Of a DNA stretch of 27,854 bases, positions 2,544 to 9,679 are shown piece by piece. The position numbers and the translations under genes are program-made. The DNA is from Gammaproteobacteria bacterium (GTDB lineage Bacteria > Pseudomonadota > Gammaproteobacteria > Steroidobacterales > GCA-2729495). Each line of letters starts with the position of its first letter. Positions within the stretch are counted from its first letter, which is position 1. A model generated the notes under the pieces. The model was not told where the DNA came from and did not search any database. It was given only the letters and a program-made list of their open reading frames with translations. Where the stretch lies: NCBI GenBank assembly GCA_048550095.1, contig JBLYYV010000100.1:1-27854 (forward strand). Direction: 5' to 3'.

Positions 2544-3491
2544 TCAGGTGTTCTCGTCGAGCGGGCGCGGCAGCCGCATCGGCGAGTCCGGTAATCCGAG
2601 ACTCTCGAGCGACGGGCCGACGTGATCGTCGAACCATGCTTCGATGAGCCGGTAGGCGATCGAGACTTTCGGCGGGAGGATGATCTTCCGCTCGGCGATA
2701 TCTTCGCGACTTACCCAGCATGCCTCCGCCAGTTCTTCGTCGTTGCAAACGATGTCGGTGGACATTGCCGTCGCATGAAAGCCGATCATGATGGCCGCCG
2801 GAAACGGCCATGGCTGCGAGGCCAGGTAGCGACACTCTGCGACTTTTATATTCGTCTCTTCATGGACCTCGCGCCGCAAGGCGTCCTCGAGACTTTCGCC
2901 CGGTTCGACGAATCCGGCAATCGTCGAGAAGCGATTTTCAGGCCAGCTTGCCTGGCGGCCGAGCAGGCAACGTTCGCCATCGCCGACGAGCACGATGATC
3001 GCCGGGTCGAGGCGCGGAAAGCTGCGGTGGCTGCAATCGGGATCGGCGCACTCCATGACGAAACCCGCTTCGAGGAGGCGATTCCGTGAGCCACAAACCC
3101 CGCAGTAACGGTGCCGCTCCTGCCACGCGACCATCGCCCTCGCATACGCGGCGAGTGCCGCATCCTGAGCGAGCAAGCGCCCCGATGCCTCGCGCAGCCT
3201 GATGAATTCGCCGCGTCCTCCGGTCCAATTCTTGTCGTCCACGGCAACGCCGAATACATGCGCCTCGCCGAGTACGCCAAGAAAGGTTAACCGCTCAGGG
3301 TCGCCGATCAGATCGGCGGCGTCGTCGCGACTCAGCAACGCGAGTCGCTCGTTTTCGATCAGGAATCGGTCGTCGAGGACGGGGACGATCCTGCTCGACG
3401 ATCGTCGCAATGCCTCGTCGAGTGCCGCGGGTTGCGTACGCAGTTCGCTGCATCGGTCGATGTACTGGCCGGAAAAGACGATCGCATCCAT
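2544..3491 (-). CDS. nudC: NAD(+) diphosphatase / NAD-cap decapping Nudix hydrolase (start reassigned to the ATG at 3491)
   Basis: Zn ribbon YCGVCG...MEC...C, FPRLDPAIIV, Nudix box GFVEPGESLEDALRREVHEET and the NudC signature SQPWPFP. Confidence 0.95.
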   Translation of the reverse strand: MDAIVFSGQYIDRCSELRTQPAALDEALRRSSSRIVPVLDDRFLIENERLALLSRDDAADLIGDPERLTFLGVLGEAHVFGVAVDDKNWTGGRGEFIRLREASGRLLAQDAALAAYARAMVAWQERHRYCGVCGSRNRLLEAGFVMECADPDCSHRSFPRLDPAIIVLVGDGERCLLGRQASWPENRFSTIAGFVEPGESLEDALRREVHEETNIKVAECRYLASQPWPFPAAIMIGFHATAMSTDIVCNDEELAEACWVSREDIAERKIILPPKVSIAYRLIEAWFDDHVGPSLESLGLPDSPMRLPRPLDENT

Positions 3492-3537: not shown

Positions 3538-4104
3538 TCAGTTTCTGCGGCACTGGTCCTTGTACTCGCAGAGTGGGCAGCGCTCATAGTCCAGCGCGTA
3601 AGTATCCTGCACGTAAGGACCCCGGCAAGACTGGCACCAGGCGAGGCACAGTTCTCCGGTCTCGATCAGCGCGTGATAGAGATTCCAGCTCCATTCGAAA
3701 GAAAACTGCGGCTCGGGCACGAGATGCACATAGGTCTCGAATGCCTGGCAGACCCGTGCTCCGAGCGAAACGCGGTCGAGATCACGCAGCGGGGCTGGGC
3801 GCCGGTCGTCGTTCAGTTGAAATACGGAACAGCAGCCGAACAGGCAAGCGAGAATCGTGGCGTCCGTTTGTCGGCGTGAGCAATCGACGAATCGCGCGAT
3901 CTGGCGCGGCGATTTCCCGCGCCGTCGCTTGACGTCGTGCTGGCCAGCACCGCTGAAGTAGGTGCCATAGAGTTTGCGTATCCGATCCTCGGTAAAACCC
4001 GTGCACGAACGGATCGTGCCGGTCCTCGCCTCATGGCGGATCATCCGCACCGCCAGGTCGAATTTCTCGATTTCTCCCGTGTAGCGATCGTCCGTTACGC
4101 GCAT
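3538..4104 (-). CDS. FlhC-family transcriptional activator-like protein, 188 aa (target genes unknown)
   Basis: LAVRMIRHEARTGTIRSCTGFTEDRIRKLY aligns ungapped to E. coli FlhC [30 protein letters not shown] (recalled). GKSP, QAFETY and WNL..LIETGEL follow the FlhC pattern. Zn site C157-x2-C160...C176-x2-C179. AGGAG SD upstream of the ATG at 4104. Confidence 0.8.
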   Translation of the reverse strand: MRVTDDRYTGEIEKFDLAVRMIRHEARTGTIRSCTGFTEDRIRKLYGTYFSGAGQHDVKRRRGKSPRQIARFVDCSRRQTDATILACLFGCCSVFQLNDDRRPAPLRDLDRVSLGARVCQAFETYVHLVPEPQFSFEWSWNLYHALIETGELCLAWCQSCRGPYVQDTYALDYERCPLCEYKDQCRRN

Positions 4105-4160
4105 TTGCCAATCTCCTGAGTTTTCGGGGAAATGCGCCTGACGGCCAAATCCCTGCGTAA

Positions 4161-4200
4161 TTGTCGTTTTATGGTTTAATAAACCCATATATAGTATATC
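4161..4200. promoter_or_regulatory. AT-rich divergent promoter core between the FlhC-like and FlhD-like genes
   Basis: Overlapping -10-like hexamers TAGTAT (+, 4192-4197) and TATACT (-, 4198-4193). Imperfect inverted repeat TATGG-TTTA A TAAACCCATA at 4170-4189. No clear -35 elements. Confidence 0.4.
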
Positions 4201-4228
4201 TGTCGAGCAAGGGTAGGGGGAAACCAGA

Positions 4229-4846
4229 ATGCAATGCAAGTCTCCGGATACGCACATCTACGCTGAGCTGACGTCGCTAAACGCCGGCTTGCTTCGAATT
4301 CTCGTCTGGCAGGATCCGCGGGATACGCATGGCCAGCCGCGCCTGGCGCCGGAAATAGCGCTGCAGCTCCGTGGACTCACGCGGGAGCAACTCGCCTTTA
4401 TCGCCGGCACGCCCGCGTTGCTGGCCGGTTTCGTGCCATCGGCTGAAGCCGATCCGGCCGACCGTGTCGCTGATTCGGGCGCGTTCGCGCATCAGTACAT
4501 GCCTTCTGATCCGGTCGCCATCACGGCCGGCGCGCCCCGGCTGGCGGTCGACGAATGGTTGCGACTGACCCGCGTCTTTACCGCGACGCTGCTCACGTGG
4601 CTGTGGAAATCCGACCAGCACGATGAGTTGGTTCGTGCGTTGTGCATCGGCTGTGGGGAAAAGCTCCCGCAACTCAGCGTGCGCCGCATCGAGTCTCTCG
4701 CCACGGACGCGGCGCCGCGGTTGCGCGTGCGCTTTGCCGGGCATCCGCGCTTCTGGTCCGATCTGATCGCCGCCGCCCGGTCGGCGGATCCTCAGTTCCG
4801 CGCGCTGTCGCGATTGGCGGTTATACCGCTCGTATTGGCCGAGTGA
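4229..4846 (+). CDS. FlhD-like protein, 205 aa, apparently two tandem FlhD-like repeats
   Basis: Repeat 1: ELTSLN...LAPEIALQLRGLTREQLAFIAGTPALLAGF. Repeat 2: FTATLLTWLWKSDQHDELVRALCIG...LPQLSVRRIESLATDAAPRLRVRF. Both follow E. coli FlhD [25 protein letters not shown]...[24 protein letters not shown] (recalled). Adjacent to an FlhC-like gene; AGGGGG SD. Confidence 0.6.
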   Translation: MQCKSPDTHIYAELTSLNAGLLRILVWQDPRDTHGQPRLAPEIALQLRGLTREQLAFIAGTPALLAGFVPSAEADPADRVADSGAFAHQYMPSDPVAITAGAPRLAVDEWLRLTRVFTATLLTWLWKSDQHDELVRALCIGCGEKLPQLSVRRIESLATDAAPRLRVRFAGHPRFWSDLIAAARSADPQFRALSRLAVIPLVLAE

Positions 4847-4901
4847 CGTCTCGACTGAATAAGGTTGGATTGCGGGGGCCCGCGTAGGACAATGCGCGCC
4901 C

Positions 4902-5849
4902 ATGCACGCACTCTCGATCAGAAACCTGACCAAGGTCTATAAGAACGGTATTCAGGCCCTGAAGGGAATCGATCTGGACGTTGCCGAGGGCGATTTCTTC
5001 GCCCTGCTCGGGCCGAATGGCGCCGGGAAGACGACCGCGATCGGCATCATCACGTCGCTCGTAAACAAGAGCGCAGGCGAGGTGCGGGTATTCGGTCACA
5101 GCCTCGATTCGGCGCCGAATGCGGTCAAGGCGAGCATCGGGGTCGTGCCGCAGGAGATCAACCTGAATCAGTTCGATCAGGTCGAGAATTGTGTCGTCAA
5201 CCAGGCCGGTTTTTACGGCATTCCGCCTCACGAGGCGCAGCAACGCGCCAAGGTGATTCTGGAGCAGCTCTCCCTGTGGGACCGGCGCGACGATATCGCC
5301 CGTAACCTGTCCGGCGGCATGAAACGCAGGCTGATGATCGCTCGCGCGCTGGTGCATCAACCCAGGTTGTTGATCCTGGATGAGCCGACCGCGGGCGTCG
5401 ACATCGAAATTCGTCGATCGATGTGGCGCTTCCTGCGGGAACTCAACGAGTCGGGCACCACGATCATCCTGACCACGCATTACCTGGAAGAGGCAGAGAG
5501 CCTGTGTCGGCATGTCGCGATTATCGATGGCGGCGAAGTGATCCAGAATCATCCGATGGACGAGTTTCTCCGCACGCTCAAACAGCAGAACTTCATCGTC
5601 AACACCCGGGATCCGGTCGCCGCCGTCCCGGTGCTGGATGGCTGTGTCCTTTACAAGCGCAAAGATTACGAACTGGAGCTCGCGGTCCAGCGCGACCATG
5701 ACCTGAACGATGTGTTCGCGGCGTTGACGAAATCCGGCGTGCGCATCGTCAGTATGCGCAACAAAACCAATCGCCTGGAAGAGTTGTTCTTCAACCTGAC
5801 AGATCGCAGCGACCGGGTCGCGGCGATCGAGCCGGAGTCGGAAGCGTGA
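4902..5849 (+). CDS. yadG: ABC-2 type transporter ATP-binding subunit (YadG-like)
   Basis: Walker A GPNGAGKT, signature LSGGMKRR, Walker B LLILDEP, and C-terminal SMRNKTNRLEELF typical of YadG. Confidence 0.9.
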   Translation: MHALSIRNLTKVYKNGIQALKGIDLDVAEGDFFALLGPNGAGKTTAIGIITSLVNKSAGEVRVFGHSLDSAPNAVKASIGVVPQEINLNQFDQVENCVVNQAGFYGIPPHEAQQRAKVILEQLSLWDRRDDIARNLSGGMKRRLMIARALVHQPRLLILDEPTAGVDIEIRRSMWRFLRELNESGTTIILTTHYLEEAESLCRHVAIIDGGEVIQNHPMDEFLRTLKQQNFIVNTRDPVAAVPVLDGCVLYKRKDYELELAVQRDHDLNDVFAALTKSGVRIVSMRNKTNRLEELFFNLTDRSDRVAAIEPESEA

Positions 5850-6619
5850 CCCCGCGCCAGCAACTGGTTGCGCTGTATACGCTGGTGCGCAAGGAGATGA
5901 GCCGCGTCACGCGCATCTGGGTACAAACGATCGTGCCGCCTATCATCACCATGTCGCTCTACTTTCTGATCTTCGGCAACCTGATCGGTCGCCGCATCGG
6001 CCAGATGGACGGCTTCGACTACATGCAGTACATCGCGCCCGGCTTGATCATGATGTCGGTCATCCAGAATTCTTACGGCAACGTCGTGTCGTCGTTCTTC
6101 GGCGCGAAGTTTCAACGACATCTCGAAGAAATGCTCGTTTCACCGATGCCGACCTACGCCATTATCCTCGGCCATGTTGCCGGCGGCGTACTCCGCGGGT
6201 TGATGGTGGGTTTCATCGTCACGCTGATCGCGCTGTTTTTCACCGACTTGAAAGTCTCGAACGCGTTGATCACGTTGAGCATCGTGATCCTGACGGCCGT
6301 CGTATTTGCGCTGGCTGGACTGATTAACGCGATCTTCGCTCGCAAGTTCGACGATATTTCGATCATTCCGTCTTTCGTACTGGCGCCGCTGACCTATCTC
6401 GGTGGCGTGTTCTATTCGATTACGTTGCTGCCCGATTTCGCGCAGAAACTGTCGTTGCTGAACCCGATCCTGTACATGGTGAACGCGTTTCGCTACGGCA
6501 TGCTGGGCGTTTCGGATATCGAAATCGGCCGCGCCTATGCGATCATTTTCGTCTTCATCGCCGTATTGTTCGGCGCGAGCATGGTCCTGATGAAGAAGGG
6601 TATCGGGATCAGGGAGTAG
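5846..6619 (+). CDS. yadH: ABC-2 type transporter permease (YadH-like)
   Basis: Multiple hydrophobic helices; QTIVPPIIT, PGLIMMSVIQNSYGNVVSSFF and PLTYLGGVFYS. GTGA start/stop overlap with the ATPase gene. Confidence 0.9.
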   Translation: MTPRQQLVALYTLVRKEMSRVTRIWVQTIVPPIITMSLYFLIFGNLIGRRIGQMDGFDYMQYIAPGLIMMSVIQNSYGNVVSSFFGAKFQRHLEEMLVSPMPTYAIILGHVAGGVLRGLMVGFIVTLIALFFTDLKVSNALITLSIVILTAVVFALAGLINAIFARKFDDISIIPSFVLAPLTYLGGVFYSITLLPDFAQKLSLLNPILYMVNAFRYGMLGVSDIEIGRAYAIIFVFIAVLFGASMVLMKKGIGIRE

Positions 6620-6631
6620 TCGCGGCGTCTT

Positions 6632-7312
6632 ATGTGTGGAAGATTCGCTTTTTATTCGCCGCACGAGGCCGTCCAGGATGTCTTCGGCGTGACTTTCCCG
6701 GCGCCGCTGGAACCGCGCTATAACATCGCCCCGAGCAGTTTCATCGTCGCGTTACGAGCGGGTAGCGAGGAGACGATCGAACCCGCGATGCTGAAGTGGG
6801 GCCTGGTGCCCTCATGGGCGAAGGACCCGGCGATCGGCAACCGCATGATCAACGCGCGCGCCGAGACGGCGCACGAGAAGCCGTCGTTCCGCGCGGCATT
6901 CAAGCGCCGGCGCTGCATCATCCTGGCGGACGGCTTTTACGAATGGCATCGTGAGGGTGAGCACAAGACTCCGTATTTCATTGCCCTGCCGGAGCGACGT
7001 CCGTTTGCGATGGCCGGACTCTGGGAGCACTGGCAGGGGAGCGAAGGATCGGAGTTGCAGACCTGCGCAATTCTGACAACCGCTGCGAACGCTGTGATGA
7101 AACCCCTGCACGACCGGATGCCTATCATTCTGCCGCCCGAAGACGCGCGGCGCTGGTGCGGCCATGCGGCCGACGACCGGGCTGCGGCTGGTCGATGCCT
7201 GGCTCAGAACGAGAATGACCGGCTGGTGCACTGGCCCGTATCGACGGTCGTCAACAACCCGCGCAACGACGGTCCGGATCTCGTTGAACCGGCTCCGCCG
7301 AGCGAGGGCTAG
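6632..7312 (+). CDS. SOS response-associated peptidase (SRAP/HMCES/YedK family) abasic-site-binding protein
   Basis: N-terminal MCGRF with catalytic Cys2, PRYNIAP, WGLVPSW, INARAET, GFYEW, HDRMP and C-terminal VNNPRN. Confidence 0.95.
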   Translation: MCGRFAFYSPHEAVQDVFGVTFPAPLEPRYNIAPSSFIVALRAGSEETIEPAMLKWGLVPSWAKDPAIGNRMINARAETAHEKPSFRAAFKRRRCIILADGFYEWHREGEHKTPYFIALPERRPFAMAGLWEHWQGSEGSELQTCAILTTAANAVMKPLHDRMPIILPPEDARRWCGHAADDRAAAGRCLAQNENDRLVHWPVSTVVNNPRNDGPDLVEPAPPSEG

Positions 7313-7971
7313 TTCCGCTCCAGCGTGAAGCGATTCCCCTGTTGATTGAGGATCGCACCGGTCGACGTGATTTCCTCGACGACCGGTCCCTCCGTGAGCC
7401 GCTCGCCTTCGCGATACTTGCTCATATTGATAAACACGAAGCGTTTTTGCGGGTCGCTCGCGTACACGTGCATGTCGAGATGCAACTGCGGCATCGAAAT
7501 GATGCCCGCGACCAGCAACTGTTCGAATCTCGGCAGGGACGGCTGGATATTCTCGGTTGCCTCTTCAGCTACGAACCGCGGCGGGTCCTCGTCGGTCACG
7601 ATCGGCACGTCGGCTGCGACGGCGACGACCGGTTCGCGCTTGACGGCAGGCTTCGGCGCCGCCTTGGGTTGCGCCGTCGCTGAATCGGCCACCGTCGGTT
7701 CGGTGGCTTCCTGCCGCAGAGACCGGGTAGCGGGCGGTCGAGTCGCGGCAGCCGGCGTCGCCGCAGGCACCGGCCCCCCGTTTTCCGCCGGACCCGCAAA
7801 GTAGATCCAGCCAACCACGAGCGCGTTTAGCAGCAGGACGACGACGAGAACCGGTATCCAGAGATTGCGCGGGTTTTTCTCCACGCGTTGCTGGGTGGTC
7901 GCGAGCCCGGGCGTTACCTGTTGCTGGCGCTCCGCGTCGCTCTTGCGTAATGCGTCGAGTATGAAAGACAT
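7309..7971 (-). CDS. gspB: General secretion pathway protein B (ExeB/GspB)
   Basis: Family-typical start MSFILDALRKSDAER, one TM helix, Pro/Ala linker and C-terminal LDMHVYASDPQKRFVFIN..YREG domain. Follows exeA; 4-bp CTAG stop overlap with the SRAP gene. Confidence 0.85.
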   Translation of the reverse strand: MSFILDALRKSDAERQQQVTPGLATTQQRVEKNPRNLWIPVLVVVLLLNALVVGWIYFAGPAENGGPVPAATPAAATRPPATRSLRQEATEPTVADSATAQPKAAPKPAVKREPVVAVAADVPIVTDEDPPRFVAEEATENIQPSLPRFEQLLVAGIISMPQLHLDMHVYASDPQKRFVFINMSKYREGERLTEGPVVEEITSTGAILNQQGNRFTLERN

Positions 7972-7975
7972 GGGT

Positions 7976-9679
7976 TCAGTTGACCCGCGCCAGCCGGGGA
8001 CTGCCGGGCTGGTTCAGATCCGTGTTAATGGCGATTTGCGTCTGGTAGCCCACCAGGCCGTCCACCGTCAGGCGGCGTTGACGCTGGTAGTCCCGAACGC
8101 GTAACTCGAGATCCTGATCGAAGAGTTCGGAGTCCATCGGGCTGACGGGTTCGCCCTGGATCCTTGCCAGGCTCTCGCGCAGCCACTTGATATCTGCATG
8201 TCGCATGCCCGGGATAAATTGCTTGACCCCGTCGATCTGCGGCCGCCACAGCAGCAGGTAGTCGCCGAACCAGTACTCTCCCAGGTCGTCGATGCTGACC
8301 GTGTAGGAATCCGCACCGATCGACAGCACGGCTCGTCGCTCATCGAGACCCGACAGTACGACCTGGTGTTGGTTTCCATCCGGATCCCGCAACGAAAGTA
8401 TCACCGGGCGGTCGAGACTCCGTACCTGGGCCAGCGAACCGCGCTGAAACAGGCAGCGCAAGCCATCGCCCTGGGCCTGCTCGCAGGCGCGGGTCGTCGC
8501 GCGCTGGTACTCGAGCCCCCACAGACCAAACAGCGTGGCGAATGCGTTGTCGGTGTCCGTGGCACCATTCCGTTGGCTCAGTAAGGGCCCGATGTTCGAT
8601 GGCGAATCCTGATCCCCGTCGCGAATCGCCGTGTCCGTATCGCTGCCGGGAGCGGTAGAGGAGACAGCGGGTTCGCCGGGCATGGCGACAGTTTCATCCG
8701 CCGTTGCCGGAATGGCGGGCGCGGGCAGCGTCGCGGTCTCCACCGGATCTGCGGACGGCGGCCGGGACAGATTGGACAGCGCCCAGTTGGCGGCAAAGAT
8801 CAGGCCCGCGACCGCACCCACGGTCGCGAGTCGTGCGAGCCACGGTCGCCATATGGCCCAGGGCGAGAAGTCGCGGTCGAGGACCTCGCTCGCTGCTTTG
8901 CGCAACAGTTTCGGCGTCACTTCGCGCGACTCTTCGGTGAAGGCGCCGAGCATGGCGCGGTCGGCGATGACGTTGATCATGCGCGGCACGCCATGCGTTA
9001 ACTTGTACAACTCGCGTTTCGCCGCGGGCGTGAAAATCGGAGCGACCGCGCCGGCGACCTTCAGACGGTGGTCGATGTAAGTGAGCGATTCCTCGCGCGA
9101 TAACGGCTCGAGGTGATAGCGCCCGGTGATGCGTTGCGCCAATTGCCGCAGGTCGTTGCGCGCGAGCATGGCGCGTAACTCGGGCTGGCCGATCAGGATG
9201 ATCTGCAGAAGCTTCTGCTTGGTCGTTTCCAGGTTCGTCAGCAAGCGGACCTGTTCCAGCACATCGATTCTGAGGTTCTGCGCTTCGTCGACGATCAAAA
9301 TTGTGCGCCGCCCCTCGCTATGGTTCTTCAGCAGGAACGCGTTCAGCGCATTGGTCAGGTCCTTGATGCTGTGGGCGCGCTCCGACAGCGGAACGTGAAG
9401 TTCCTCGCAGATCGCGCTCAGAAATTCGTTGCGGGAAATCTGCGGATTCAGGATCAGCGCCACGTCGGTCGTGTCCGGAATCTGCTGCAGCAGGCTCCTG
9501 ACGAGCGTGGTTTTGCCGGTGCCGACTTCGCCGGTCAGCTGGATGAATCCACCGCTCTCGCGGACGCCATAGACGAGATGCGCAAGCGCCTCCGTATGGC
9601 GTTCGCTCATGAAGAGGTAACGCGGATCGGGCGCGATGGAGAACGGCTTCTCGTTTAGTCCGAAAAAGCGGGTATACAT
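7976..9679 (-). CDS. exeA: ExeA/GspA AAA+ ATPase with TM helix and C-terminal peptidoglycan-binding domain
   Basis: MYTRFFGLNEKPFSIAPDPRYLF, Walker A GEVGTGKT, Walker B IVDEAQ, GQPEL, GVPRMINVIADRAML and PG-binding VRDYQRQRRLTVDGLVG. Confidence 0.93.
   Translation of the reverse strand: MYTRFFGLNEKPFSIAPDPRYLFMSERHTEALAHLVYGVRESGGFIQLTGEVGTGKTTLVRSLLQQIPDTTDVALILNPQISRNEFLSAICEELHVPLSERAHSIKDLTNALNAFLLKNHSEGRRTILIVDEAQNLRIDVLEQVRLLTNLETTKQKLLQIILIGQPELRAMLARNDLRQLAQRITGRYHLEPLSREESLTYIDHRLKVAGAVAPIFTPAAKRELYKLTHGVPRMINVIADRAMLGAFTEESREVTPKLLRKAASEVLDRDFSPWAIWRPWLARLATVGAVAGLIFAANWALSNLSRPPSADPVETATLPAPAIPATADETVAMPGEPAVSSTAPGSDTDTAIRDGDQDSPSNIGPLLSQRNGATDTDNAFATLFGLWGLEYQRATTRACEQAQGDGLRCLFQRGSLAQVRSLDRPVILSLRDPDGNQHQVVLSGLDERRAVLSIGADSYTVSIDDLGEYWFGDYLLLWRPQIDGVKQFIPGMRHADIKWLRESLARIQGEPVSPMDSELFDQDLELRVRDYQRQRRLTVDGLVGYQTQIAINTDLNQPGSPRLARVN

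What the first reader, a model, noticed from the sequence alone, without database searches (positions are those of the whole stretch)
4229..4846. FlhD-like protein looks like a single-chain FlhD pseudo-dimer
Seen: the protein is about twice FlhD length. Residues about 13-68 and about 113-169 each follow the FlhD pattern, joined by a Pro/Ala/Asp-rich linker. Repeat 2 aligns without gaps to recalled E. coli FlhD over two blocks (25 aa sharing D16 and G25; 24 aa sharing L..L[ST]...[IM]..LA.........RF), with a 4-residue deletion between them. Known: FlhD acts as an intertwined homodimer, and each FlhC binds one FlhD dimer. Inference: gene duplication and fusion gave an asymmetric dimer mimic, so the complex would be (DD)2C2 with two diverged halves able to specialise.
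Basis: partly seen in the sequence, partly recalled or inferred. Interest (0 to 1): 0.75.

Follow-up and report, generated by a model that had tools for sequence, protein, structure and literature searches.

The report
Natural single-chain double FlhD regulator
This 205-residue protein carries two copies of the FlhD fold in one chain, apparently a built-in version of the FlhD dimer. It is always encoded back-to-back with an FlhC-like zinc protein, even in relatives that have no flagella, which points to an undescribed non-flagellar branch of the FlhDC regulator family.

Summary
ORF 4229-4846(+) is a real, conserved gene: 197 clusters of relatives, nearly all 190-250 aa and all labelled hypothetical.

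The N-half (about residues 5-69) is homologous to FlhD. The family profile hits FlhD chains in the PDB at E 8.6e-7, and HH probability is 96.6%.

The C-half (about 107-205) is also an FlhD-family module. Its own HMM hits short, Pfam-FlhD-positive proteins at 30-37 bits (9.4e-7 per genome) and canonical FlhD at 17.5 bits.

In a confident AlphaFold2 model (pLDDT 84.5, pTM 0.81), both halves superpose on FlhD chain 8j56_A residues 4-68, at rmsd 1.4 Å and 2.1 Å. The model's only two beta-strands are the segments equivalent to the FlhD Cys65 dimer contact.

Direct similarity between the two halves is only marginal (P about 0.002-0.005).

The gene lies divergently from an FlhC-like gene with an invariant Cys4 site. 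The two co-occur in 21 of the 24 other family genomes searched and are both missing from the same three. The synteny nudC | C <> D | yadGH holds across the order.

At least five genomes with the pair (96-100% complete, two of them closed) lack both FlhA and flagellin. So this is not a dedicated flagellar master regulator.

Stoichiometry, DNA target and regulon are untested. I rate it a new variant of a known kind.

The parts
4229..4846 (+). Gene for the 205-aa tandem FlhD-like protein (P0001), stop codon included
   Evidence: ORF. Conserved start (MxCKSPD), with a GGGGGA Shine-Dalgarno-like run 7-12 nt upstream of the ATG. 197 related clusters.
4241..4435 (+). N-half, residues 5-69: FlhD N-terminal core (long helix, two short helices, strand)
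   Evidence: Profile A2 against PDB FlhD: E 8.6e-7, 3.5e-5 and 4.5e-5. HH probability 96.6%. VIA-align Z 6.8 with rmsd 1.7 A and Z 6.4 with rmsd 1.4 A.
4436..4546 (+). Linker, residues 70-106: Pro/Ala/Asp-rich, variable in length, low confidence in the model
   Evidence: Composition. Indels and low conservation. pLDDT 52-71. In the alignment shown in full about 30 residues or more always separate the strand from the next helix.
4547..4843 (+). C-half, residues 107-205: complete, diverged FlhD-like module (core 108-169, then three C-terminal helices with the conserved HPRFW.DL motif)
   Evidence: VIA-align rank 1 of 48,161: FlhD 8j56_A, Z 6.1, rmsd 2.1 A, 61 of 65 residues. The C-half HMM hits single-domain Pfam-FlhD-positive proteins at 30-37 bits and canonical FlhD at 17.5 bits. 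Per-genome E 9.4e-7. Pfam FlhD hits the C-half of member P0149.
3538..4104 (-). Divergently transcribed FlhC-like gene (188 aa; conserved start MR.TD.RY at 4104, not the upstream ATG at 4257)
   Evidence: Pfam FlhC E 2.5e-5, below the curated cut-off. Profile A3 against PDB FlhC: 8j56_C E 3.5e-5, 2avu_E 0.0036, with two colinear stretches. Cys157, 160, 176 and 179 are invariant, as are R41, R43, K44 and the R60-K64 basic patch.
4170..4189 (.). 20-bp palindrome TATGGTTTAATAAACCCATA in the 124-bp divergent intergenic region: candidate operator
   Evidence: The ATGG-N10-CCATATATAGTA block is conserved in 11 relatives whose D-like proteins are only 31-39% identical. More distant loci carry a different perfect inverted repeat at the same distance. 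The site is unique in G000 and in two closed relatives.
4190..4195 (+). -10-like hexamer TATAGT, 33 nt upstream of the D-like ATG; no -35 consensus
   Evidence: Sequence. Invariant ATATATAGTA block. The consensus promoter scan found no full sigma-70 promoter.
4902..6619 (+). Downstream ABC-2 transporter pair (ATPase 4902-5849, YadH-type permease 5846-6619), 55 bp after the D-like stop with no terminator between them
   Evidence: NF011648, E 2.7e-123. Synteny in more than 20 relatives and in outgroup families. No terminator-like site.
2544..3491 (-). nudC (NAD+ diphosphatase) downstream of the FlhC-like gene: conserved neighbour
   Evidence: NF001299, E 7.4e-71. Synteny.

Best explanation
The gene encodes a natural single-chain FlhD pseudo-dimer.

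Architecture:
- An N-terminal FlhD core (residues 5-69).
- A flexible linker of about 37 residues.
- A diverged but complete FlhD-like module (residues 107-205).

The two modules most likely fold onto each other within one chain, in the way two FlhD chains intertwine in the FlhD homodimer (inferred from the model). The protein most likely works with the product of the divergently transcribed FlhC-like gene, a Cys4 zinc protein that keeps part of FlhC's basic DNA-binding patch. Together they would form an FlhDC-type heteromeric transcription regulator, plausibly (DD)2C2 by analogy with FlhD4C2 (inferred).

In FlhD4C2 each FlhD homodimer is used asymmetrically, with one 'internal' and one 'peripheral' subunit. 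A fused and diverged pseudo-dimer would hard-wire that asymmetry (inferred).

The system is chromosomal and conserved across an order of uncultured marine Gammaproteobacteria. It is not tied to flagella. Its most likely direct target is its own divergent promoter region, which carries a conserved, co-varying palindrome next to the -10 box. Through that promoter it would also control the downstream yadGH-like ABC transporter (low-confidence inference).
For: Shown by tools:
- The gene is real and the architecture conserved.
- The N-half is FlhD-like.
- The C-half is an FlhD-family module.
- The model is confident: pLDDT 84.5, pTM 0.81, all five models 82.5-84.5. Its only two strands fall at the positions equivalent to FlhD Cys65.
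- The Cys65-Cys65' contact across the FlhD dimer, and the internal versus peripheral FlhD subunits, are described in PMC3510510.
- The neighbour is FlhC-like with an invariant Cys4 site.
- D-like and C-like genes are present in the same 21 of 24 family genomes and both missing from the same 3.
- The divergent adjacency and the nudC/ABC synteny hold in every locus examined, including other families of the order.
- The pair occurs in genomes without FlhA (12 of 22 pair-bearing family genomes, G000 included). Five of these, two of them closed, also lack flagellin.
- The palindrome is conserved and co-varies, and is unique in the genome.
- ESM Atlas neighbour clusters of 208-247 aa carry Pfam FlhD in 21-32% of members, and 41 of 136 family members match Pfam FlhD.
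Against: - P0001 itself has no Pfam or NCBIfam hit, and Foldseek found nothing.
- The VIA-align Z-scores (6.1-6.8) lie in a range that the tool warns can arise by chance for helical proteins. Here they are the top hits, cover 61 of 65 residues, and the next hits score Z 3.8-5.2.
- Direct similarity between the N-half and C-half is marginal (HH probability 7-17%).
- I could not obtain model coordinates, so the intramolecular dimer-like packing was not measured by superposition on an FlhD dimer.
- No complex prediction or experiment links the protein physically to the FlhC-like protein.
- The genes are divergent rather than an flhDC operon.
- Nothing tested shows which protein binds the palindrome. 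Its position between the -35 and -10 regions would also suit a repressor or a MerR-type regulator.
Confidence: 0.62

Rival explanations
1. The chain has two FlhD-like modules, but they do not pair within one chain. Each N-half pairs with the C-half of another chain (a domain-swapped homodimer or a higher oligomer), or each half recruits a different partner.
For: The 37-residue flexible linker would allow swapping. FlhD's fold is an intertwined dimer, so either topology satisfies it. A monomer-only AlphaFold2 prediction is biased towards intramolecular packing.
Against: All five models agree, pTM is 0.81, and the two equivalent strands pair within the chain. In the alignment shown in full the linker is never shorter than about 30 residues, which fits a need to reach back to the start of the second module.
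Confidence: 0.15
2. It is the flagellar class I master regulator (FlhDC) of this lineage, only in a fused form.
For: It is homologous to FlhD and FlhC. G000 has flagellin and FlhA but no canonical FlhD.
Against: 12 of the 22 family genomes that carry the pair lack FlhA. Five of them (96-100% complete, two closed) also lack flagellin. Two genomes have FlhA but no pair (G003, G008). The locus is syntenic with nudC and yadGH, not with flagellar genes. The conserved palindrome was not found upstream of other genes in G000.
Confidence: 0.07
3. Only the N-half is FlhD-derived. The C-half is an unrelated helical domain that resembles FlhD by chance or convergence, so the protein is an FlhD fused to a different effector or partner-binding domain.
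For: HMMER with the full-length profile reported only the N-half against PDB FlhD. HH probability for the C-half against canonical FlhD is at most 50%. Z 6.1 is modest.
Against: The C-half-only HMM hits several ~105-aa proteins that pass Pfam FlhD's own cut-off. It does so at 30-37 bits over nearly their whole length, and it hits canonical FlhD in the same register (E 9.4e-7). Pfam FlhD hits the C-half of P0149. FlhD is the top structural match of 48,161 chains. Reversed-sequence controls score 7-10 against 18-24.
Confidence: 0.06
4. The D-like protein acts without the FlhC-like protein, for example as an anti-activator or decoy that mimics an FlhD dimer, and the adjacency reflects regulation rather than a complex.
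For: The genes are divergent, not co-transcribed. The D-like protein evolves much faster (31-39% identity) than the C-like protein (50-68%) across the same loci.
Against: The two genes are present and absent together, and the head-to-head arrangement is invariant across the order. FlhC needs FlhD for stable, specific DNA binding in the known system (PMC3510510).
Confidence: 0.1

Closest known systems
FlhD/FlhC flagellar master regulator (E. coli FlhD4C2, PDB 2AVU and 1G8E; Cupriavidus necator FlhDC, 8J56)
   Same: Both halves have the FlhD N-terminal fold, and the N-half has clear sequence homology. The partner gene is an FlhC homologue with the Cys4 zinc site and part of the basic patch. The strand that carries the dimer contact (Cys65 in FlhD) is present in both halves.
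   Different: - There are two FlhD modules in one 205-aa chain rather than a 116-aa chain that homodimerises, and the halves are unequal and diverged.
- The Cys65 equivalent is Ala in the N-half and Val or Leu in the C-half.
- The genes are divergent rather than an flhDC operon.
- The pair occurs in genomes with no flagellar genes.
- The candidate operator is a single 20-bp palindrome abutting the -10 box. The FlhD4C2 box has two 17-18-bp repeats with a 10-11-bp spacer.
Mobile-element FlhDC-like activators SetCD (SXT/R391 ICEs), AcaCD (IncA/C plasmids), SgaCD (SGI1)
   Same: These are non-flagellar uses of an FlhD-like plus FlhC-like heteromeric activator. The C-half of this protein scores best against short FlhD-like proteins encoded upstream of FlhC-like genes in other Gammaproteobacteria (multi-copy in one genome, so possibly mobile).
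   Different: Those D subunits are single-domain proteins of about 100 aa, encoded with their C partner on mobile elements, and they drive transfer genes. This locus is chromosomal, syntenic across a whole order, and fused. I did not compare it directly with SetD or AcaD sequences.
BisDC of ICEclc (Pseudomonas)
   Same: A two-component activator named by analogy to FlhDC, in which the 'D' component is a fusion protein.
   Different: BisD is a ParB-like CTP clamp fused to a helical domain with no detectable FlhD similarity, and BisC lacks the zinc site (bioRxiv 10.1101/2024.09.16.613209). Here both modules are FlhD-like and the C partner keeps the Cys4 site.
Single-chain pseudo-dimers of obligate dimer folds, such as the double histone fold
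   Same: Two copies of a fold that exists only as an intertwined dimer are encoded in one chain and assemble intramolecularly, which lets the halves diverge (PMC13088155; abstract only).
   Different: The fold and function are unrelated. This is an analogy of evolutionary logic, not homology.

Membership tests
FlhD (Pfam PF05247 / FlhD superfamily) | The single sequence reaches the curated Pfam or NCBIfam threshold | tested here: not met
   P0001 has no Pfam or NCBIfam hit even at E<=1. 41 of 136 family members match PF05247, best E 1.5e-8.
FlhD (Pfam PF05247 / FlhD superfamily) | Profile-level sequence homology to bona fide FlhD | tested here: met
   N-half: PDB FlhD E 8.6e-7 to 4.5e-5; HH 96.6%, E 5.5e-10. 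C-half: 30-37 bits against Pfam-positive short FlhD-like proteins, 17.5 bits against canonical FlhD; E 9.4e-7 per genome.
FlhD (Pfam PF05247 / FlhD superfamily) | FlhD N-terminal fold (long helix 1, short helices, strand at the dimer axis) | tested here: met
   In the predicted model both halves superpose on 8j56_A residues 4-68, at rmsd 1.4 A (Z 6.4) and 2.1 A (Z 6.1). This rests on a prediction, not an experimental structure.
FlhD (Pfam PF05247 / FlhD superfamily) | Single-domain chain of about 105-120 aa that forms an intertwined homodimer | tested here: not met
   The chain is 205 aa with two modules. This architecture is the norm in the family. Short representatives are fragments or frameshifts.
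FlhDC system | flhD immediately upstream of flhC on the same strand (operon) | tested here: not met
   The genes are head to head, 124 bp apart, in every relative examined.
FlhDC system | Partner FlhC homologue with the Cys4 zinc site | tested here: met
   Profile A3 against FlhC: 8j56_C E 3.5e-5, 2avu_E 0.0036. Cys157, 160, 176 and 179 are invariant. The Pfam FlhC score of 24.6 bits is below the 27-bit cut-off.
FlhDC system | Association with and control of flagellar genes | tested here: not met
   The pair is present in 12 family genomes without FlhA. Five of them (two closed) also lack flagellin. Regulation itself was not tested.
FlhDC system | D4C2 hetero-hexamer (here (DD)2C2) that binds DNA through FlhC | not testable with these tools
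   No multimer prediction and no coordinates were available.
Mobile-element FlhDC-like activators (SetCD/AcaCD/SgaCD) | Encoded on an ICE, plasmid or genomic island next to transfer genes | tested here: not met
   The chromosomal synteny nudC | C <> D | yadG yadH is conserved across the family and in other families of the order.

The most novel reading that the evidence does not exclude
This may be the first natural hard-wired heterodimer of FlhD. Two FlhD paralogues that had already diverged would have fused into one chain: one closer to flagellar FlhD, the other closer to the short FlhD-like proteins found upstream of FlhC-like genes. The fusion would fix the internal/peripheral asymmetry that FlhD homodimers adopt in FlhD4C2. 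With a divergently encoded FlhC-like zinc protein, it would form a previously unrecognised chromosomal, non-flagellar master-regulator system in an abundant group of uncultured marine Gammaproteobacteria, with its own operator type and regulon.
Probability: 0.35. Interest if true: 0.75.

Novelty: new variant of a known kind. Interest (0 to 1): 0.62.

Why it matters
FlhD4C2 is a textbook regulator, but its architecture is still puzzling. FlhD contributes little DNA contact yet is essential, and each FlhD homodimer sits asymmetrically in the ring.

A natural protein that fuses two diverged FlhD modules would help in three ways:
- It offers a ready-made tool for asking what each position in the dimer does, because the halves can be mutated independently.
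- It shows that the FlhDC family extends beyond flagella and mobile elements to a conserved chromosomal system.
- It gives about 200 clusters of 'hypothetical proteins' a testable annotation.

The closed genomes among the relatives may be cultured strains, which would make genetics feasible.

Tried and rejected
- Single-sequence searches found nothing useful: Pfam and NCBIfam gave no hits, and phmmer against the PDB gave only noise.
- Foldseek against the PDB found nothing with either model. Only VIA-align recovered FlhD.
I took genomic context from the genome search, the search for related loci and the fetch from genomes instead.
- The flagellar master-regulator reading is rejected on the absence of FlhA and flagellin.
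- A genome-wide search for the palindrome in G000 found no regulon. The strict site is unique, and the loose ATGG-N10-CCAT pattern is no commoner than at other spacings. G000 is only 87% complete.
- Closed relatives also carry only the one exact site. G007 has a second.
- I looked for naturally split forms, with the N-half and C-half as separate genes. The short representatives are contig-end fragments, 'partial' records or frameshifted genes.
- Full-text searches of the held library found no description of a tandem or single-chain FlhD, and no open paper on the 8J56 structure.
- The overlapping minus-strand ORF 4277-4933 is treated as a GC-rich artefact, because the plus frame is the conserved one.

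Full report
**1. The gene is real**

Window 4229-4846(+) is an ATG-to-TGA ORF of 205 codons. It has 25 close relatives of 194-219 aa, down to 37% identity. An exhaustive profile search found 197 representative clusters at E<=1e-3, and almost all match end to end at 190-250 aa. Every source name seen is 'hypothetical protein', from metagenomes or MAGs. The start (MxCKSPD) is conserved and preceded by a GGGGGA Shine-Dalgarno-like run. The overlapping minus-strand ORF 4277-4933 is a high-GC artefact. Related loci carry NCBI labels such as uncultured Chromatiales, Chromatiaceae or Gammaproteobacteria MAGs.

**2. The N-half is FlhD**

P0001 alone hits nothing in Pfam, NCBIfam or the PDB.
- A 24-sequence profile put three FlhD chains at the top of the PDB list, weakly (E 0.08-0.5).
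- A 136-sequence profile made this significant: 8j56_A E 8.6e-7, 5hxg_B 3.5e-5, 1g8e_A 4.5e-5. All cover profile positions 8-84 against FlhD 4-87.
- hhalign of the N-half against an FlhD alignment gives probability 96.6-96.7%, E about 5e-10.
- 41 of 136 family members match Pfam FlhD individually, best E 1.5e-8.
- ESM Atlas neighbour clusters (208-247 aa, 'hypothetical') carry PF05247 in 21-32% of members.

**3. The C-half is also an FlhD-family module**

Four independent lines support this.

(a) Structure. The model built from the 136-sequence alignment is confident: mean pLDDT 84.5, pTM 0.81, all five models 82.5-84.5. In an all-against-all VIA-align search of 48,161 PDB representatives, the top hit is FlhD 8j56_A. 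The match has Z 6.1 and rmsd 2.1 A over 61 of 65 residues, model 108-169 against chain 4-68. The earlier, poorer model already gave the same match at rank 4.

(b) Profile against genomes. When the full-length profile was run over 300 Gammaproteobacterial genomes, canonical FlhD matched the N-half positions (8-117, E 8.7e-8). Short ORFs of 104-118 aa in G310 (four copies), G059, G042 and G265 matched the C-half positions (about 88-181), with E 9.4e-7 to 3e-4 per genome. Three of those ORFs (two in G310, one in G059) pass Pfam FlhD's own cut-off. The ones whose flanks I examined sit just upstream of FlhC-like genes.

(c) Half-specific HMMs, with E-values given for Z=1 over 412 ORFs searched:

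| HMM | Short FlhD-like proteins | Canonical FlhD |
|---|---|---|
| C-half only | 30-37 bits, over nearly their whole length | 17.5 bits, same register |
| N-half only | 18.8 bits | 32.9 bits |

(d) Other profile evidence. hhalign of C-half 100-175 against canonical FlhD gives E 1.7e-4, probability 50%. Reversed-sequence controls score 7-10 against 18-24 for the real comparisons. Pfam FlhD hits the C-half of member P0149 (127-210 against profile 18-100, E 0.0096).

**4. The N-half also superposes on FlhD**

In the second-look VIA-align run the N-half aligned to 1g8e_A (Z 6.8, rmsd 1.7 A, model 5-67 against chain 1-66). It also aligned to 8j56_A (Z 6.4, rmsd 1.4 A, model 8-69 against chain 4-68). 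The next hit scored Z 3.8. So the same FlhD chain segment fits both halves. Foldseek itself found nothing. The Z-scores are modest by the tool's own caveats. They are nonetheless the top hits, they cover almost the whole target, and they agree with the sequence evidence.

**5. Internal repeat**

Direct hhalign of the N-half against the C-half is colinear and in the expected register (4-73 against 5-73), but only marginal: P 0.0015-0.005, probability 7-17%. The halves are therefore related through FlhD, not recognisably to each other.

Their opposite preferences in section 3(c) suggest one of two histories: a very old duplication, or a fusion of two paralogues that had already diverged.

The halves are also unequal. 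The N-half keeps only the FlhD core plus a vestigial segment (the conserved 'RVAD' at about 79-82). The C-half is a full module with three C-terminal helices and the nearly invariant L165, R168, W176 and L179.

**6. Pseudo-dimer packing (inferred)**

I could not obtain coordinates, so I could not superpose the model on a two-chain FlhD dimer. The indirect evidence is as follows.
- pTM 0.81 for the whole chain implies a defined arrangement between the halves.
- DSSP assigns only two strands, 66-68 and 165-167, so they must pair with each other.
- In the alignments these are the segments equivalent to the FlhD strand that carries Cys65: A66 in the N-half, and V167 or L165 in the C-half.
- In FlhD crystal structures Cys65 of one chain is disulfide-bonded to Cys65 of the other (PMC3510510).
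- The linker (residues 70-106, 51% Pro/Ala/Asp, low pLDDT) varies in sequence and length. In the alignment shown in full it keeps about 30 residues or more between the strand and the next helix.

**7. The partner**

The divergent ORF, with its conserved start at 4104, encodes a 188-aa FlhC-like protein.
- Pfam FlhC gives E 2.5e-5, below the cut-off.
- A 16-sequence profile hits FlhC 8j56_C (E 3.5e-5) and 2avu_E (0.0036) in two colinear stretches.
- Four Cys (157, 160, 176, 179) are invariant, as are R41, R43, K44 and the R60-K64 basic patch. R41 and K44 align with E. coli FlhC R39 and K42, which were among the residues mutated in FlhC variants that lost DNA binding (PMC3510510).
- Within the family, D-like and C-like genes are present in the same 21 of 24 genomes and both missing from the same three.
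- C-like genes occur in 13 of 16 other families of the order. In the loci fetched from 12 of these, ten carry a divergent 187-248-aa ORF next to the C-like gene that shows the same two-half pattern on inspection. In the other two the ORF could not be read: one extraction picked the ABC gene instead, and one stretch is masked. Most of the 12 loci are flanked by the ABC ATPase and nudC.
- One of these outgroup genomes (G039) is unpublished. It contributes only one count to the 13 of 16 tally and one weak D-like hit, and no conclusion depends on it.

**8. Not a flagellar regulator**

G000 has flagellin and FlhA but no canonical FlhD. However, 12 of the 22 pair-bearing family genomes lack FlhA. 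Five of them (96-100% complete), including the single-contig genomes G013 and G020, also lack flagellin. Two genomes have FlhA but no pair. The locus is chromosomal and syntenic: esterase, nudC, C-like <> D-like, yadG/yadH-type ABC-2 transporter, then SRAP. It is not on a mobile element.

**9. Candidate operator**

The 124-bp intergenic region holds a 20-bp palindrome (4170-4189) abutting a -10-like TATAGT (4190-4195). There is no -35 consensus.
- The block ATGG-N10-CCATATATAGTA is conserved in 11 relatives whose D-like proteins share only 31-39% identity.
- More distant loci carry different perfect inverted repeats at the same 38-39-nt distance from the start codon. This is co-variation typical of an operator evolving with its binding protein.
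- The strict site is unique in G000 (87% complete) and in two closed relatives.
- G007 has a second perfect copy upstream of a Rieske-type oxygenase gene.

Nothing here tests which protein binds the palindrome. I infer, with low confidence, autoregulation by the D-like/C-like complex and control of the downstream ABC transporter. That transporter begins 55 bp after the D-like stop, with no terminator-like site between them.

**10. Comparison and novelty**

Known FlhDC-type systems are the flagellar FlhD4C2 and the mobile-element activators SetCD, AcaCD and SgaCD. BisDC is a looser case: its D component is a ParB-like fusion with no FlhD similarity, and its C component lacks the zinc site.

I found no report of a tandem or single-chain FlhD in the held literature. 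The closest conceptual analogue is the double histone fold pseudo-dimer (abstract only).

I classify this as a new variant of a known kind, on four features:
- an FlhDC-family regulator whose D subunit is a fused, asymmetric pseudo-dimer;
- a divergent rather than operonic gene arrangement;
- a chromosomal locus with conserved synteny;
- no association with flagella.

An earlier first-stage note on the same stretch (e1-5299830) called the pair an orphan, divergently transcribed FlhC-like/FlhD-like regulator system. My results agree with it.

**Limits**

All structural statements rest on AlphaFold2 models.

Noticed in passing
window 4170-4195: A 20-bp palindrome, TATGGTTTAATAAACCCATA, abuts a -10-like TATAGT upstream of the D-like gene. 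The block is invariant in relatives with highly diverged coding sequence. More distant relatives carry a different inverted repeat at the same position. The site is unique in the genome.
   Followed up: partly
L063 2409-2432 (G007:C78:84408-84431): A second perfect copy of the ATGG-N10-CCATATATAG site occurs in a congeneric genome. It lies between an MFS transporter gene and a Rieske-type [2Fe-2S] oxygenase gene, so the oxygenase may be a regulon member.
   Followed up: partly
L025, L027, L028, L057-L059, L061 (G310, G059, G042, G265): Short (104-118 aa) FlhD-like proteins, three of which pass Pfam FlhD's cut-off, are encoded just upstream of FlhC-like genes with extra Cys motifs. There are four copies in G310, so they may be borne on mobile elements. 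They resemble the C-half of the tandem protein more than canonical FlhD does.
   Followed up: partly
window 3538-4257 (-): The longest ORF for the FlhC-like gene starts at 4257 and would overlap the D-like start. The start conserved in all relatives is the ATG at 4104 (MR.TD.RY). Likewise, nudC probably starts near 3491, not 3587.
   Followed up: yes
window 7309-9679 (-): A GspB-like gene (PF16537, T2SSB) and an ExeA-like gene (AAA plus peptidoglycan-binding domain) sit downstream of the SRAP gene. They look like type II secretion accessory proteins.
   Followed up: no
L054 (G139), L060 (G264): Two-half D-like ORFs also turn up in genomes of other Gammaproteobacterial families outside the window's order, so the architecture is rare but not confined to one order (about 4-5 of 300 sampled genomes).
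   Followed up: partly
P0111, P0130: Two shorter family members on long contigs look like frameshifted or truncated copies, because their tails diverge from the family. They do not look like natural split forms.
   Followed up: partly
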